Shown here in pieces: positions 21,362 to 24,083 of a DNA stretch of 64,000 nucleotides. The stretch lies in assembly GCF_030013205.1 (NCBI RefSeq), contig NZ_CP122648.1; one strand, 5' to 3'. This DNA is from Escherichia coli (GTDB taxonomy: Bacteria; Pseudomonadota; Gammaproteobacteria; Enterobacterales; Enterobacteriaceae). Numbering within the stretch: the first letter of the stretch is position 1; the number at the start of each line of letters is the position of its first letter. The position numbers were made by a program, and so were the translations under genes. Below the pieces are notes generated by a model that searched no databases, was not told where the DNA came from, and worked only from the letters and a program-made list of their open reading frames with translations.

Positions 21362-23401
21362 TCATCCCAGGAACCGTTGAGCACCAATTAGTTGCGCGAA
21401 GTAATCGGCACCAGCGTTCCGAACAATTTCCAACTTAACGTTCTGATCATTGTTTCCTGCTGCAGGGACAATCCCACGATTCATAGCCAGCGCCCGGATC
21501 ACATCTTCAACACTTACAGCTTTAGCGGCAGCACCATTTTCATGGTTAATAATGCCCTGAATTAGCTTTTTCATGACCTCAAAATTAGAACCATCGATTT
21601 TCTCCTTAACACCTAATCCGGTGTACTGAGAGAGATAGCTTTTATAGGACGATGTGTTATTTCCATCAGATGAAGGGGCATAAATATCAATAATCTGATC
21701 AATCGTATTTTTGCCGCGTTTCAGGTATAGCATTACCTGCCGATCTAAGGCGGCAATGCCTTCCAGCATCGTCGGGAAGCTGGCAAAACGGGCATTTGGC
21801 CCCGATTCCAGGGTAGCCCCTTTTTGTCCTGCGAAATTAAGATTTCCGGGATTGTTATTCCTGATCCCTCTGGATAAATATGCAGATCTGTTTACTTGAT
21901 TTGAAAATCCCTGCAATCCTCCAGGCCAGACCTTACCCGGATTGTTTTTTTGCCACTCCTGCACTTCGTTAAAATAATCAAAGTTGAAACGCCCCTCCAG
22001 CCCTTTCATTTCCTCACTGGTGGTAGGTGTGTCATTTGTAGGAATAGCCAATCCAGCTACTGTTCCGGCTGTAGCCCCAAGAAGACTTCCACCAACAACA
22101 CGGGCGGCAACTCCGGTCGTTGTGGCTGCCACAGCACCAACTCTCGATGGTCCAGCAAGTACTGCGGCCCCAAAAAGCCAGGGATGTTCAACCGCAAAAC
22201 CAACAAACCCGCTAAGTGCCTTAACAACCTTTGCAACGTTTTCGGCAAAATTGTTCAGGTCGTTATTAAAATCCGGGCCATTTACGTACTTACCAAGTTT
22301 ATCCAGCCCCGTTTCTACATCCGTCAGAATCCTTTTAAAGTTCTCACCATTCATGAAATTCAGGGCAGCATTCGTGGCACCATCAGACATTCTGATTAAA
22401 GCGTCTTCATTCCCCGCCATTGCTCCCTGAAATCCGCTGGTAAGCCGATCCCAGTTTTTTTCCAGGTTACTGGTAATATTCTGATATTTACTTGTATGTG
22501 CAGAGGTCAGTAACGAATCATTCTGCGCTGCACGTAACGAAAACTCTTTGTTGAGTTCAGGTATTTTGTCCTGATATTTGACTAACTGGTTAGTAAGACC
22601 AAAATTTACCCATCCAAGCCCCATTCCTCTGAAATTGCTCTGGGTAAGACCAGTTCCCTGATATTCCTTTGCCAGCGCTGCAACCTTTTTCAGGAATACA
22701 GGCAGGTTTTCAGTCGCGTTTTTATCAGGATTTAGCCCCAGATTAAGCAGGCCGACGCGGGCAGGATGCGATATATCATTTTGTGCTGCTGCCAGTGTAT
22801 TGAGCACATTGCCAACACCGGAAAAATAAGGCGAATAAGTGCTTTCTGCCGCCTTTAACTCTCCTGGCGTTGCCACCAGCTCATCTGCATTTTTCTGTTT
22901 CTCTACAACACTACGGGACATCATGCCAAAGCCAAACGGTCCGGCAACGCCCATAACCGAGAGTTTTGTTCCCCACGATACGGTTGTTTTAAACAGGTTG
23001 TTTAATCTTGAAGTGGTCGTCTGTAGTGTAGAATTGATCTGCTTGTAAGTTTTCAGCGTCTGTTGGGCATTTTTCCCCAGCCCGCTGAGATACTTATCAA
23101 ACATCGTTTCGCCGCGACCTTTATAGTTGCTTACGAACGAATCTGCTGTTTTTCCGCTGCCGACAAAGCGCCCTTTTTCGTCCCTCACTCTCCCGGATAC
23201 ATCCGGTCCTGTCCGACCAGATTTTGCCGCCACGGGTAAGCCTGCCCCCACGCTGCGCCCACTTTGCCCCGGTATTTTCATCGGCGTTCCGGCAGGGCCG
23301 ATCATCAGCCCGTTGCGATACTTTTCAAAAATTGCCTCAAGCCGTTTGAGGTGTTCTTCATTAACGTCCAGCGTCAGAACTGGCATCTGATTACCTGACA
23401 T
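21362..23401 (-). CDS. tape-measure-like virion protein with C-terminal globular domain (RNNNPGN motif)
   Basis: 679 aa with a helical N-terminal two thirds and a Gly/Ala-rich hydrophobic segment (HPWLFGAAVLAGPSRVGAVAATTTGVAARVVGG...). Directly preceded by a two-frame chaperone-like gene, and its start overlaps the stop of the -1 frame (TAATG). Confidence 0.6.
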   Translation of the reverse strand: MSGNQMPVLTLDVNEEHLKRLEAIFEKYRNGLMIGPAGTPMKIPGQSGRSVGAGLPVAAKSGRTGPDVSGRVRDEKGRFVGSGKTADSFVSNYKGRGETMFDKYLSGLGKNAQQTLKTYKQINSTLQTTTSRLNNLFKTTVSWGTKLSVMGVAGPFGFGMMSRSVVEKQKNADELVATPGELKAAESTYSPYFSGVGNVLNTLAAAQNDISHPARVGLLNLGLNPDKNATENLPVFLKKVAALAKEYQGTGLTQSNFRGMGLGWVNFGLTNQLVKYQDKIPELNKEFSLRAAQNDSLLTSAHTSKYQNITSNLEKNWDRLTSGFQGAMAGNEDALIRMSDGATNAALNFMNGENFKRILTDVETGLDKLGKYVNGPDFNNDLNNFAENVAKVVKALSGFVGFAVEHPWLFGAAVLAGPSRVGAVAATTTGVAARVVGGSLLGATAGTVAGLAIPTNDTPTTSEEMKGLEGRFNFDYFNEVQEWQKNNPGKVWPGGLQGFSNQVNRSAYLSRGIRNNNPGNLNFAGQKGATLESGPNARFASFPTMLEGIAALDRQVMLYLKRGKNTIDQIIDIYAPSSDGNNTSSYKSYLSQYTGLGVKEKIDGSNFEVMKKLIQGIINHENGAAAKAVSVEDVIRALAMNRGIVPAAGNNDQNVKLEIVRNAGADYFAQLIGAQRFLG

Positions 23402-24083
23402 TACAATACTCCTGCGGGATTTTTGAATTTGAGCAGCTCACGAAACTGAGCTGCTGTTTTTACATTCAGACCGGAATCTGCACAGATGTCTCTGAATCCG
23501 GCTCCGGCTGAGTAGTCGAGGATGTCGCTGATGACGTGTTCGCCGTCGCGCCAGAACTGACGGCAGGCTTCAATGTCGGCAATGAATCGATCCATTCCGT
23601 AAGACTCAAGGACGAGCATTGAGTGCTCCATATTCCATTCACCGCATCCATAGTCCCCTTCGTCTGCTCCGGGGAATTTATCGACGAGACGCATGTAAAA
23701 AAAACAAGTTCACCCGCCACTTCGTCCAAATCAACGATTTCACGCTCCAGCGCCATATCGAGAGGGATTGTGTCGTAGCCTTTGCCCTCCACTGGATAAA
23801 CAAGGTTTGCCAGGCGAATAATTTCGTTTATGAGCGTATTACGTATGCCTTTCTCCCCATCCCATAAACCGGAGTCACGGGAGATTTTCTCCAGCATAAG
23901 GCAGGCAACGCGCGGACCCGCAACAACACCAAGACCTTCAGAAAAAATGGCAGAAAAGGTTTTACTCAGGATGAAGAAATGCTCTTTAAACACCTCTTTG
24001 CTGATCGGCGTGGCATGGAGCCAGCCATTACCCTTTTCAGTGCGCACAGGGATAATCAGATTTAAGTTTTTAGCAATTTTCAT
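23401..24083 (-). CDS. tail-assembly-chaperone-like gene with two overlapping frames (0-frame 23466..24083, 205 aa; -1 frame continues to 23401, predicted fusion 227 aa)
   Basis: ORFs 23466..24083 and 23401..23694 overlap. They can be joined by a -1 slip on gtt ttt ttt aca. The 0-frame tail after the slip site is S/T-rich and unprotein-like, whereas the -1 frame looks globular. Confidence 0.55.
23697..23704 (-). other. T8 slippery run (candidate programmed -1 frameshift site)
   Basis: Minus-strand sequence is G TTT TTT TTA C. The 0-frame reads V127 F128 F129 T130. After a -1 slip the next codons are TAC ATG CGT, in frame with ORF 23401..23694. Confidence 0.5.

What the first reader, a model, noticed from the sequence alone, without database searches (positions are those of the whole stretch)
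23401..24083. Candidate programmed -1 frameshift on a T8 run joining two overlapping frames just upstream of the tape-measure-like gene
The 0-frame ORF (205 aa) reads ...GELVFF-TCVSS... across G TTT TTT TTA C (plus-strand A8 at 23697-23704). A -1 slip gives ...GELVFF-YMRLVDKFPGADEGDYGC..., which continues through ORF 23401..23694 to a stop that overlaps the start of the 679 aa gene (TAATG). The 0-frame continuation is S/T-rich and looks like non-coding translation, whereas the -1 continuation looks globular. This two-product arrangement immediately 5' of the tape measure gene is the conserved gpG/gpGT tail-assembly-chaperone layout of dsDNA tailed phages. One difference is that the 0-frame does not terminate soon after the slip site, as it does in lambda.
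Basis: partly seen in the sequence, partly recalled or inferred. Interest (0 to 1): 0.65.

Follow-up and report, generated by a model that had tools for sequence, protein, structure and literature searches.

The report
Frameshifting tail chaperone gene in a phage satellite
The run of eight T's is most likely a real, deeply conserved programmed -1 frameshift site that makes two tail-assembly chaperone proteins just upstream of a tape-measure gene; this mechanism is well known in tailed phages, but here it is unannotated and sits in a 13-kb phage-satellite-like island of E. coli rather than in a phage.

Summary
On the minus strand, a 205-aa ORF (23466-24083) contains U_UUU_UUU (T8, 23697-23704). 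The -1 frame opens four codons upstream and runs 98 codons to a TAA that overlaps the ATG of the 679-aa tape-measure-like gene.

Comparative evidence supports a programmed -1 frameshift.
- 84 of 85 related loci, down to about 31% protein identity, keep a T6-T8 run at the same codons and need a -1 shift. One locus has T9, which fuses the frames.
- Both Phe codons at the site are always TTT. Elsewhere in these genes Phe is 71% TTC.
- Both reading frames past the site are conserved and under purifying selection.
- Many relatives have no start codon from which the -1 domain could be made on its own.
- In phage relatives the gene pair lies between the sheath/tube genes and the tape-measure gene.

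- The 0-frame tail is real coding sequence, not noise. G and GT therefore carry alternative C-terminal domains of 76 and 98 aa.
- The window copy is in a 13.2-kb integrase-bearing, PICI-like island, not in a phage.

No stimulatory RNA structure was found. The structure models were too poor to test the fold. No experiment has tested the shift. It is a new member of a known kind.

The parts
23466..24083 (-). G-like tail assembly chaperone, the 0-frame product (205 aa). Residues 1-129 are shared with GT. Residues 130-205 are the G-specific C-terminal tail.
   Evidence: ORF. Family phrog_11810, unknown function. The 120 best database hits are all 205 aa and come from thousands of contigs. 769 clusters at 50% identity match, and most are full length. 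The 0-frame tail is conserved in distant phages.
23697..23704 (-). T8 run. Its last seven bases (23697-23703) form the slippery heptamer U_UUU_UUU, with the Phe128 and Phe129 codons TTT TTT in the 0 frame.
   Evidence: Conserved as T8, T7 or T6 in the same phase in 84 of 85 related loci. Always TTT TTT, against a 71% TTC background. F129 is invariant and F128 nearly invariant in 66 diverse family members.
23401..23697 (-). T segment. This is the -1-frame coding sequence read after the slip (98 codons plus a TAA that overlaps the tape-measure ATG). The predicted GT fusion is 129 + 98 = 227 aa.
   Evidence: Family phrog_14324. The peptide is conserved in distant phages, with motifs YG.xRF.AD.E, L.WA..EGF and SA..FRQR. 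pN/pS in the -1 frame is 0.57 in the overlap and 0.38 in the T-only part.
23466..23696 (-). Dual-coding overlap of about 76 codons, in which both the 0 frame and the -1 frame encode conserved protein.
   Evidence: The three-base periodicity of variation is lost. pS falls from 0.45 to 0.17-0.20. pN/pS is 0.71 in the 0 frame and 0.57 in the -1 frame, against 1.5 in the +1 control frame.
23710..23712 (-). TGA that closes the -1 frame four codons upstream of the first codon read after the shift.
   Evidence: The distance to this stop varies between relatives (4 to 160 codons), so it is probably not functional in itself.
21362..23401 (-). Tape-measure-like protein (679 aa) with a C-terminal cell-wall-lytic domain.
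   Evidence: phrog_7694. Residues 501-630 match domains in tape-measure, endolysin and transglycosylase families. PGAP annotates it as a lytic transglycosylase domain protein. Its first 450 aa are 50% identical to the E. coli W prophage protein that lies between the chaperone and the baseplate hub.
24080..24763 (-). 227-aa DUF2213 protein. It is homologous to the N-terminal half of the phage's 440-aa DUF2213 (head protease-like) protein. It lies directly upstream of G, with an ATGA overlap.
   Evidence: Pfam PF09979. phrog_6216 positions 115-326 of 545. 54% identical to residues 1-226 of the E. coli W prophage protein.
24828..25415 (-). 195-aa protein whose C-terminal 130 aa match the C-terminal part of the same phage DUF2213 protein. 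The phage gene is therefore split and permuted in the island.
   Evidence: phrog_6216 positions 409-544 of 545. 64% identical to residues 305-433 of the E. coli W prophage protein.
20783..21310 (-). 175-aa protein with an N-terminal helix-turn-helix domain that resembles small terminase subunits and excisionases.
   Evidence: phrog_57 terminase small subunit, E = 5e-7. HTH_17 scores below the Pfam cut-off.
19562..32735 (-). 13.2-kb integrative island (PICI-like phage satellite) that carries the locus. It is bounded by a 16-bp direct repeat, AACGTGTAGCTAAAAA, at 19562-19577 and 32720-32735. It lies between yejO and tRNA-Pro/yejM.
   Evidence: Repeat. tRNA-Pro at 32854-32930. Integrase at 31403-32644. 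Annotated gene content in ETEC4079, including the helicase RepA-family gene (Pfam AAA_25).

Best explanation
Proposed mechanism:

1. Ribosomes translating the 205-aa chaperone gene reach U_UUU_UUU with tRNA-Phe on both TTT codons.
2. Most ribosomes continue in frame and make G (205 aa). G carries a conserved 76-aa C-terminal tail.
3. A minority slip back one base, re-pair perfectly on UUU UUU, read TAC next, and make GT (227 aa). GT has the same 129 N-terminal residues plus a conserved 98-aa T domain, and it ends exactly at the start of the tape-measure gene.
4. By analogy with lambda G/GT and P2 E/E+E', the shared N-domain would coat the tape-measure protein. The rare T domain would recruit the tube protein, so that the tail is built to the length set by the tape measure.

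What is shown here: the sequence anatomy, deep conservation of the site at the nucleotide level, purifying selection on both frames, and the canonical gene position in phage relatives.

What is inferred: that the shift occurs on the ribosome, what its rate is, and what the two products do.

The window copy belongs to a satellite-like island, which presumably supplies these proteins to tails built from a helper prophage's parts.
For: Anatomy of the site
- The heptamer is canonical, the -1 ORF runs to the tape-measure ATG, and the -1 frame opens just upstream of the site.

Conservation of the site
- Six related loci fetched individually, from an E. coli island and E. coli, Klebsiella, Pantoea, Yersinia and Shewanella (pro)phages, and 78 of 79 IMG/VR loci keep T8, T7 or T6 ending at the same codon phase. 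All need a -1 shift into an ORF of 96-123 aa that ends within about 50 bases of the next long ORF's start wherever one was found.
- The site codons are always TTT TTT, even in contigs of 60-67% G+C. Other Phe codons in the same genes are 118 TTC to 49 TTT.
- F129 is invariant and F128 nearly invariant among 66 diverse family members.

Both products look real
- The T peptide and the 0-frame tail are each significantly similar between the window and distant phages.
- pN/pS is 0.17 in the G-only part (about 2 in the off frames), 0.71 and 0.57 in the overlap (1.5 in the control frame), and 0.38 in the T-only part.
- In the Klebsiella, Yersinia and Shewanella phages and in most of the other distant loci there is no ATG, GTG or TTG in the -1 ORF from its upstream stop to codon +30. 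The T domain there cannot be made by its own initiation.

Gene position
- In 75 of 79 loci the gene directly follows the tube-position gene. The upstream 445-aa protein is a tail sheath (phrog_205, E = 9.5e-55), and the downstream genes are the tape-measure-like gene and a baseplate hub.

Literature
- U_UU.U_UU.U shifts at more than 0.10% in E. coli without stimulators. It falls in the H_HH.U_UU.Y class of efficient motifs, and UUUUUUU is under-represented in E. coli genes (PMC4066793).
Against: - No experiment or proteomic data exist for this family, so neither the product ratio nor the existence of GT has been shown directly.
- There is no detectable sequence similarity to any described chaperone family: no Pfam hit, no PDB relative, and hhalign probability 1.4% against Mu gp41.
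- The structure models were too poor to test the fold (pLDDT 50 and 36).
- No downstream stimulatory structure is supported: z-scores are about 0, the RNAalifold consensus is -3.8 kcal/mol with no covariation, and there is no Rfam match.
- The slip site lies 76 codons before the 0-frame stop, which differs from lambda.
- In the window the tube gene that should sit upstream is absent.
- In the E. coli group an ATG follows the slip site, so independent initiation cannot be formally excluded for this copy.
- A run of eight T's could also support RNA polymerase slippage.
Confidence: 0.85

Rival explanations
1. The same GT protein is made mainly by transcriptional slippage. RNA polymerase adds one extra U while copying the T8 run, so a fraction of mRNAs carry U9 and read straight from G into T.
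For: - The run is 8 bases long in most loci.
- A genomic T9 variant (L062) does fuse the frames into a 227-aa ORF with exactly the predicted GT sequence.
- Sharma et al. name transcriptional slippage as a possible reason for the rarity of UUUUUUU in E. coli genes (PMC4066793).
Against: - Three diverged lineages have only T7 (L006, L069, L071) and one has T6 (L085). All keep the two-frame layout.
- From general knowledge, not tested here, E. coli RNA polymerase slips appreciably only on longer runs.
- U_UU.U tetramers and U_UU.U_UU.U heptamers are efficient ribosomal shift motifs without stimulators (PMC4066793).
- The two mechanisms give identical proteins, so sequence analysis cannot separate them. 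Both may contribute.
Confidence: 0.12
2. No recoding occurs. The 97-aa -1 ORF, or a 72-aa version that starts at its Met26, is translated from its own start codon as a separate small protein.
For: - In the E. coli group an ATG follows the T run immediately (23692-23694).
- In the window a second ATG at codon 26 has a GGAG 8 nt upstream.
- Databases hold the ORF as stand-alone proteins of 97 aa and 72 aa. PHROGs has a 97-position family for it.
Against: - The first ATG has no Shine-Dalgarno sequence, because it is preceded by the T run.
- In the Klebsiella, Yersinia and Shewanella phages and in most other distant loci the -1 ORF has no start codon at all before the conserved domain, yet the domain and the T run are conserved.
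- This reading does not explain why both Phe codons are always TTT.
Confidence: 0.03
3. The T8 is a sequencing or assembly error, or a recent inactivating indel in a decaying prophage remnant. The true gene would be a single continuous ORF.
For: - Homopolymers are error-prone.
- Rare variants do exist: L062 with T9 is fused, P0261 is fused and P0264 is truncated, and one error-ridden contig gives P0003.
- Some islands have lost part of G and the tape-measure gene (ETEC6335).
Against: - The same frame relation is found in 84 of 85 independent loci and in complete genomes from many laboratories and platforms.
- All 120 best protein hits are 205 aa and represent thousands of contigs.
- The 0-frame tail past the site is itself conserved and under selection. 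That would not hold if the true gene were the fusion.
Confidence: 0.01

Closest known systems
Phage lambda gpG/gpGT tail assembly chaperones (Levin, Hendrix and Casjens 1993; Xu, Hendrix and Duda 2004, 2013, 2014), as summarised in PMC5009743
   Same: - Two products share an N-terminal domain, and the longer one is made by a -1 shift on a heptamer.
- The shifted ORF ends at the start of the tape-measure gene.
- No downstream stimulatory structure is evident.
- The arrangement is conserved despite low protein similarity.
   Different: - The heptamer is U_UUU_UUU, not G_GGA_AAG.
- The slip site lies 76 codons before the 0-frame stop, not near the 3' end of G.
- G (205 aa) and GT (227 aa) are nearly the same size and differ by alternative C-terminal domains, rather than GT being an extension of G.
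- The relatives are contractile-tailed phages.
- There is no detectable sequence homology.
Phage P2 gpE/gpE+E' and Mu gp41, the chaperones of contractile-tailed phages that lie between the tube and tape-measure genes
   Same: - The gene position is sheath, tube, chaperone pair, tape measure, baseplate.
- From general knowledge, the P2 slip site is also a T-rich run (T_TTT_TTG).
   Different: - No sequence similarity to Mu gp41 (hhalign probability 1.4%).
- Mu gp41 has no in-phase slippery heptamer within the gene.
- The family here (phrog_11810 and phrog_14324) is annotated only as hypothetical protein in every record examined.
E. coli dnaX tau/gamma and IS3-family orfA/orfAB -1 frameshifts
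   Same: A -1 shift on a homopolymeric X_XXY_YYZ heptamer produces two proteins with a common N-terminus in a set ratio.
   Different: - Those sites use A_AAA_AAG with an upstream Shine-Dalgarno-like element and a downstream hairpin or pseudoknot. Neither element is supported here.
- In dnaX the shifted frame stops almost at once. Here it encodes a 98-aa domain.
Phage-inducible chromosomal islands (PICIs) and P4-like satellites of Enterobacteria
   Same: - The island is 13.2 kb with flanking direct repeats next to a tRNA gene.
- It carries an integrase, a small helix-turn-helix regulator, an Icd-like gene, a RepA helicase or primase replication module, a small-terminase-like gene, and head-protein fragments derived from a helper-type phage.
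- It co-occurs with one prophage type.
   Different: - Within the papers I could search, described satellites redirect capsids or packaging, or block tail assembly with unrelated Tai proteins (PMC11364771). I found none described as carrying a tape-measure gene with its frameshifting chaperone pair.
- Induction and transfer of this island have not been tested.

Membership tests
G/GT-type frameshifted tail assembly chaperone pair (Xu, Hendrix and Duda 2004) | Two overlapping reading frames lie immediately upstream of the tape-measure gene, and the shifted frame ends at or near the tape-measure start. | tested here: met
   In the window the -1 ORF ends in a TAA that overlaps the ATG of the 679-aa gene. 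In the six individually fetched loci the -1 ORF ends at the annotated start of the next long gene. In the IMG/VR loci it ends within about 50 bases of that start wherever one was found, and none was found in three.
G/GT-type frameshifted tail assembly chaperone pair (Xu, Hendrix and Duda 2004) | The pair lies directly downstream of the major tail or tube gene. | tested here: not met
   In the window a DUF2213 fragment lies upstream, and the island has no sheath or tube gene. The feature is met in the phage relatives. A homologue of the tube-position protein lies directly upstream in 75 of 79 IMG/VR loci, and a tail sheath (phrog_205) precedes it in the E. coli W prophage. The window copy is therefore a displaced member.
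G/GT-type frameshifted tail assembly chaperone pair (Xu, Hendrix and Duda 2004) | A slippery sequence in the correct phase allows the tRNAs to re-pair in the new frame. | tested here: met
   U_UUU_UUU sits with TTT TTT as 0-frame codons, so re-pairing in the -1 frame is perfect. The motif is an efficient shifter in E. coli (PMC4066793).
G/GT-type frameshifted tail assembly chaperone pair (Xu, Hendrix and Duda 2004) | The frameshift arrangement is conserved among diverged relatives. | tested here: met
   84 of 85 loci, down to about 31% identity, keep it. The TTT TTT codon choice is under selection. The overlap shows dual-coding selection.
G/GT-type frameshifted tail assembly chaperone pair (Xu, Hendrix and Duda 2004) | Both products are made in a fixed ratio, both are needed for tail assembly, and neither is present in virions. 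G binds the tape measure and T binds the tube protein. | not testable with these tools
   This needs reporter assays, genetics and virion proteomics.
G/GT-type frameshifted tail assembly chaperone pair (Xu, Hendrix and Duda 2004) | Sequence or fold relationship to characterised tail assembly chaperones. | tested here: inconclusive
   By sequence there is none: no Pfam hit for the window protein or for 66 family members, no PDB relative, and probability 1.4% against Mu gp41. The AlphaFold models had pLDDT 50 and 36, so no fold search was attempted. From general knowledge, chaperones of this kind are very diverse in sequence, so lack of similarity does not exclude membership.
Tail tape measure protein | A long protein is encoded between the chaperone pair and the baseplate genes, often with a C-terminal lytic domain. 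| tested here: met
   - The protein is 679 aa.
- Its homologue in the E. coli W prophage lies between the chaperone and the baseplate hub.
- Its C-terminal 130 aa match domains found in tape-measure, endolysin and transglycosylase families.
- The hydrophobic Gly/Ala-rich segment at residues 400-455 was read from the sequence directly.
- Length determination itself was not tested.
PICI-like / P4-like phage satellite | An integrative element of about 10-15 kb has att repeats, an integrase, its own replication module, packaging or capsid-redirection genes, and no complete set of virion genes. | tested here: met
   The element is 13.2 kb between 16-bp repeats. It has an integrase, a RepA helicase, an Icd-like gene, ProQ and PerC, a small-terminase-like gene and split head-protease fragments. 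It has no capsid, portal, sheath or tube gene.
PICI-like / P4-like phage satellite | A specific helper phage induces the element and packages it. | not testable with these tools
   There is only indirect support. The helper-type sheath and tube genes occur in 88 of 5426 E. coli genomes. At least 17 of the 25 best island-bearing genomes carry that phage type, 14 by sheath and tube and 3 by a phage-type G locus.

The most novel reading that the evidence does not exclude
The most novel reading not excluded is this. A PICI-like satellite carries its own frameshifting chaperone pair and a tape-measure protein with a swapped lytic domain. It uses them to build or re-equip helper-derived contractile tails for its own particles. 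On that reading the satellite would manipulate tail assembly and the injection machinery, not just capsid size and packaging. The G/GT pair would be an unusual version in which the shift swaps one conserved 76-aa C-terminal domain for another of 98 aa, rather than adding an extension.
Probability: 0.3. Interest if true: 0.7.

Novelty: new member of a known kind. Interest (0 to 1): 0.4.

Why it matters
**Annotation.** In every record examined these genes are labelled hypothetical protein, and no record annotates a joined or frameshifted GT product. The family has at least 769 clusters at 50% identity. It spans E. coli and Salmonella prophages, Yersinia and Shewanella phages, and the recently created family Felixviridae. 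The frameshift gives all of them a functional label and a recoding annotation.

**Recoding biology.** This is a clean natural case of U_UUU_UUU use with no evident stimulator. It has a long, demonstrably dual-coding overlap of 76 codons. The two products differ by alternative domains rather than by an extension. It would suit tests of how much the heptamer achieves on its own.

**Satellite biology.** A tape measure and its chaperones inside a satellite-like island suggest that satellites can take over tail-length or injection components. The island also carries split and permuted pieces of the helper's head protease gene. If confirmed, this would widen the known range of helper exploitation.

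Tried and rejected
- **Structure.** AlphaFold2 on G with a 15-sequence alignment gave pLDDT 50. The GT fusion run as a single sequence gave pLDDT 36. Both are too poor, so no fold search was run.
- **Sequence membership.** Nothing linked the family to known chaperones: Pfam on the window proteins and on 66 family members, NCBIfam (run on neighbouring island proteins, not on G or the T ORF), a PDB profile search, and hhalign against Mu gp41.
- **Stimulatory RNA.** Single-sequence folds of the 57-105 nt that start at or just after the run, in the window and five relatives, gave z-scores between -2.2 and +1.9 with no shared fold. RNAalifold on 10 E. coli-group sequences gave -3.8 kcal/mol and no covariation. 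Rfam gave no match. An upstream GGGUGA that resembles a Shine-Dalgarno sequence was considered. It cannot be separated from the conserved Gly-Glu codons, and it ends only 6 nt from the heptamer, so it is not claimed.
- **The upstream TGA as a signal.** Rejected, because its distance varies from 4 to 160 codons among relatives.
- **att site inside the tRNA.** No repeat of 14 nt or more was found between the tRNA region and the far end of the island. A 16-bp repeat about 120 nt beyond the tRNA was found instead.
- **Literature.** Searches found no paper that mentions a frameshift in these phages, or a tape-measure gene in a satellite. The searchable library is limited to open-access papers and preprints.

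
Full report
**1. What is in the sequence**

All genes discussed are on the minus strand.
- ORF 23466..24083 encodes 205 aa and reads ...EVAGELVFF TCVSS... across GTT TTT TTT ACA.
- The eight T's occupy 23697-23704. The last seven form U_UUU_UUU, with TTT TTT (Phe128, Phe129) as 0-frame codons. This is a canonical X_XXY_YYZ heptamer.
- After a -1 slip the next codon is TAC. 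The frame then stays open for 98 codons (YMRLVDKFPGADEGDYGC...NPAGVL) to a TAA that overlaps the ATG of the 679-aa ORF 21362..23401 (TAATG).
- The -1 frame is closed by a TGA four codons upstream of the first codon read after the shift.
- The predicted products are G (205 aa) and GT (129 + 98 = 227 aa).

A T8 by itself is not unusual in this window: there are 3 copies against 7.35 expected. Significance therefore has to come from comparison with relatives.

**2. Where the window comes from**

The region is 100% identical to E. coli ETEC4079 (NZ_CP122643.1). PGAP annotates only the 205-aa ORF, as a hypothetical protein, and leaves a 64-nt gap before the next gene, which it calls a lytic transglycosylase domain protein.

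**3. Relatives and gene position**

Homologues occur in 98 of 5426 complete E. coli genomes and in several cultured phages:
- Escherichia phage Rac-SA53;
- Klebsiella phages Chronis, RothC and RothD;
- Pantoea phage PdC23;
- Yersinia vB_YenM phages;
- Shewanella phage QDWS.

Chronis, RothC/RothD and PdC23 belong to the recently created family Felixviridae (PMC12451628).

In the E. coli W prophage and in all of these phages the gene order is the same. It runs: 445-aa protein, 143-aa protein, this gene, a gap of 57-130 nt, the tape-measure-like gene, then baseplate genes. The 445-aa protein is a tail sheath (phrog_205, E = 9.5e-55), and a baseplate hub follows. In 75 of 79 IMG/VR loci the homologue of the 143-aa tube-position protein lies directly upstream. 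This is the canonical position for a tail assembly chaperone pair.

**4. Conservation of the recoding site**

I examined six loci fetched individually and 79 IMG/VR loci.
- 84 of the 85 keep a T run ending at the same codon phase (...E.VFF...). Seventy-nine have T8, four have T7 and one has T6.
- All 84 require a -1 shift into an ORF of 96-123 aa.
- That ORF ends within about 50 bases of the start of the next long ORF wherever one was found. None was found in three IMG/VR loci.
- The single exception, L062, has T9. Its frames are fused into a 227-aa ORF identical to the predicted GT.

This holds across N-terminal protein identities down to 31% and in contigs from 46% to 67% G+C. In the 32 loci scored for codon use, both Phe codons at the site are always TTT. 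The other Phe codons in the same genes are 118 TTC to 49 TTT, and four G+C-rich loci have no other TTT at all.

In an alignment of 66 diverse family representatives (23-43% identical to the window protein, apart from one close relative at 83%), only R90 and F129 are invariant, and F128 is nearly so. Selection is therefore acting on the nucleotide run itself. Sharma et al. report that UUUUUUU is markedly under-represented in E. coli genes. They also report that U_UU.U_UU.U shifts at more than 0.10% without stimulators, within the efficient H_HH.U_UU.Y class (PMC4066793).

**5. Both frames code**

The peptide read in the -1 frame after the slip is significantly similar between the window and distant phages, with BLASTP E-values from 1e-5 to 5e-12. 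Shared motifs are YG.xRF.AD.E, L.WA..EGF and SA..FRQR.

The peptide read in the 0 frame after the slip is also conserved, with E-values down to 2.5e-9. It has the motif ...Q.TSL..TE[FY]..SLPT..., then a Ser/Thr/Ala/Pro-rich linker of variable length, then a C-terminal [IV]P[SH].

Diversity was measured on 42 unique E. coli-group sequences:

| Segment | pN/pS, 0 frame | pN/pS, -1 frame | pN/pS, control frame | pS |
|---|---|---|---|---|
| G-only | 0.17 | 2.0 (off frame) | 1.8 (+1) | 0.45 |
| Overlap | 0.71 | 0.57 | 1.5 (+1) | 0.17-0.20 |
| T-only | 1.0 (control) | 0.38 | - | 0.26 |

In the G-only part, variation sits at 0-frame third positions. In the overlap the three-base periodicity disappears and pS drops, which is the signature of dual coding. 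G and GT carry alternative conserved C-terminal domains of 76 and 98 aa.

**6. Alternatives**

*Assembly error or pseudogene.* All 120 best database hits are 205 aa and come from thousands of contigs. Most of the 150 listed representatives, out of 769 matching 50%-identity clusters, are full-length 0-frame proteins. Fused or truncated variants are rare singletons (L062, P0261, P0264, P0003).

*Independent initiation of the T ORF.* In the E. coli group an ATG follows the run, but it has no Shine-Dalgarno sequence. In the Klebsiella, Yersinia and Shewanella phages and in most other distant loci there is no ATG, GTG or TTG anywhere from the upstream stop to codon +30, yet the domain is conserved.

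*Transcriptional slippage.* It would give the same protein and cannot be excluded for T8. The T7 and T6 lineages keep the layout, which favours a ribosomal shift as the general mechanism. This is an inference.

**7. Stimulators**

No stimulatory element is supported.
- Folding gave z-scores between -2.2 and +1.9 and no shared fold.
- The alignment fold is weak, at -3.8 kcal/mol, and shows no covariation.
- Rfam has no match.

From general knowledge rather than from a result here, the lambda G-T site also works at a low level without a strong stimulator.

**8. Membership**

By position, slippery site, conservation and frame layout this is a G/GT-type chaperone pair (PMC5009743). By sequence it is unrelated to any described chaperone family. 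Its fold could not be tested, because the models had pLDDT 50 and 36. PHROGs holds the two ORFs as separate families of unknown function, phrog_11810 and phrog_14324. None of the papers found on these phages mentions a frameshift.

**9. Context: a satellite-like island, not a phage**

The window copy lies in a 13.2-kb island bounded by a 16-bp direct repeat (19562-19577 and 32720-32735). The island sits between yejO and tRNA-Pro/yejM.

The island encodes:
- an integrase and a small helix-turn-helix regulator;
- an Icd-like pseudogene and a DUF4222 protein;
- a RepA-family helicase, ProQ/FinO and PerC;
- a 195-aa and a 227-aa protein, which are the C-terminal and N-terminal parts of the phage's 440-aa DUF2213 head protein, split and in permuted order;
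- G/GT and the tape-measure-like gene;
- a 175-aa small-terminase-like helix-turn-helix protein.

It has no capsid, portal, sheath or tube gene.

Further observations on the island family:
- The first 450 aa of the tape-measure protein are 50% identical to the E. coli W prophage protein and 80-90% identical to other prophage copies. The C-terminal lytic domain is of a different type from that in E. coli W.
- A second island in the same genome has the identical chaperone region but a different replication gene (a DNA primase instead of the RepA helicase) and a different integration site.
- Related islands at the same tRNA site carry other packaging modules, or have lost part of G and the tape-measure gene.
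- The helper-type sheath and tube genes occur in only 88 of 5426 genomes. At least 17 of the 25 best island-bearing genomes have that phage type, 14 by sheath and tube and 3 by a phage-type G locus.

This pattern fits a PICI-like satellite of Rac-SA53-type myophages that has captured the helper's chaperone and tape-measure module. Induction and transfer have not been tested. Within the literature I could search, I found no description of a satellite that carries these genes.

**10. Verdict**

It is a strongly supported, previously unannotated example of a textbook recoding mechanism. Two features are uncommon: the long dual-coding overlap that gives alternative C-terminal domains, and the location in a satellite-like island.

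- Novelty: new member of a known kind.
- Interest: moderate (0.4). The satellite angle is the part most worth following up.

Noticed in passing
window 19562-32735 (repeats at 19562-19577 and 32720-32735): The locus lies in a 13.2-kb island flanked by the 16-bp direct repeat AACGTGTAGCTAAAAA, between yejO and tRNA-Pro/yejM. It has an integrase, a RepA-family helicase and Icd-like, ProQ/FinO and PerC genes, but no capsid, portal, sheath or tube gene. This makes it a PICI-like phage satellite.
   Followed up: partly
window 24080-24763 and 24828-25415 (minus strand): Two adjacent ORFs are the N-terminal 226 aa (54% identity) and the C-terminal 130 aa (64% identity) of a single 440-aa DUF2213 head protein of the helper-type prophage. 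In the island the C-terminal piece is encoded first. This could be a capsid-remodelling device. PGAP labels the 195-aa ORF a NUDIX hydrolase, and neither Pfam nor NCBIfam supports that label.
   Followed up: partly
window 21362-23401 (minus strand), residues about 450-679: The N-terminal 450 aa of the island's tape-measure-like protein match prophage tape measures (50-90% identity). Its C-terminal lytic domain (with an NNPGNL motif) differs in type from the SLT domain of the E. coli W prophage protein, which suggests a domain swap.
   Followed up: partly
L001 (NZ_CP122643.1 958026-976926), same genome as the window: ETEC4079 carries a second island whose chaperone region (the 901-bp query) is 100% identical. 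It has the same DUF2213, 205-aa and 2040-bp gene layout, but a DNA primase instead of the RepA helicase and a different integration site. The satellite family is therefore modular, and one cell can hold several copies.
   Followed up: partly
E. coli complete genomes: The helper-type sheath and tube genes are present in only 88 of 5426 E. coli genomes. At least 17 of the 25 genomes with the best matches to the island also carry that prophage type, 14 by sheath and tube and 3 by a phage-type G locus. This strong co-occurrence is consistent with a satellite-helper pair. ETEC4079 was not among the 60 records listed.
   Followed up: partly
L090 (ETEC6335 island) and L091 (SA53-3 island), same tRNA-Pro site: One related island has the chaperone gene truncated and the tape-measure gene deleted. 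Another carries DUF1441 and a small terminase subunit instead of the DUF2213, chaperone and tape-measure module.
   Followed up: no
L062:1880-1888; proteins P0261, P0264: Rare homopolymer-length variants exist. A T9 locus has the two frames fused into a 227-aa ORF. A 232-aa protein appears fused through a shorter run. A 139-aa protein is truncated in the +1 frame. They are either sequencing errors or natural GT-only and null mutants.
   Followed up: no
C-terminus of the 205-aa protein (window 23466-23480) and family-wide: The 0-frame product ends in a conserved [IVL]P[SH..] tripeptide after a low-complexity linker of variable length. Among 150 family representatives, IPS and VPS are the commonest endings. 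Its function is unknown.
   Followed up: no
window 19440-19468: Another T8 in the window belongs to a hairpin followed by a T run (AAAAAAACCAACCTTTACGGTTGGTTTTTTTT) just after the yejO stop codon. This looks like an ordinary intrinsic terminator.
   Followed up: no
L003:1-1142 (E. coli W prophage): The gene three genes upstream of the major head protein gene in the helper-type prophage is annotated by PGAP as an anti-CBASS protein Acb1 family protein. This was not examined.
   Followed up: no
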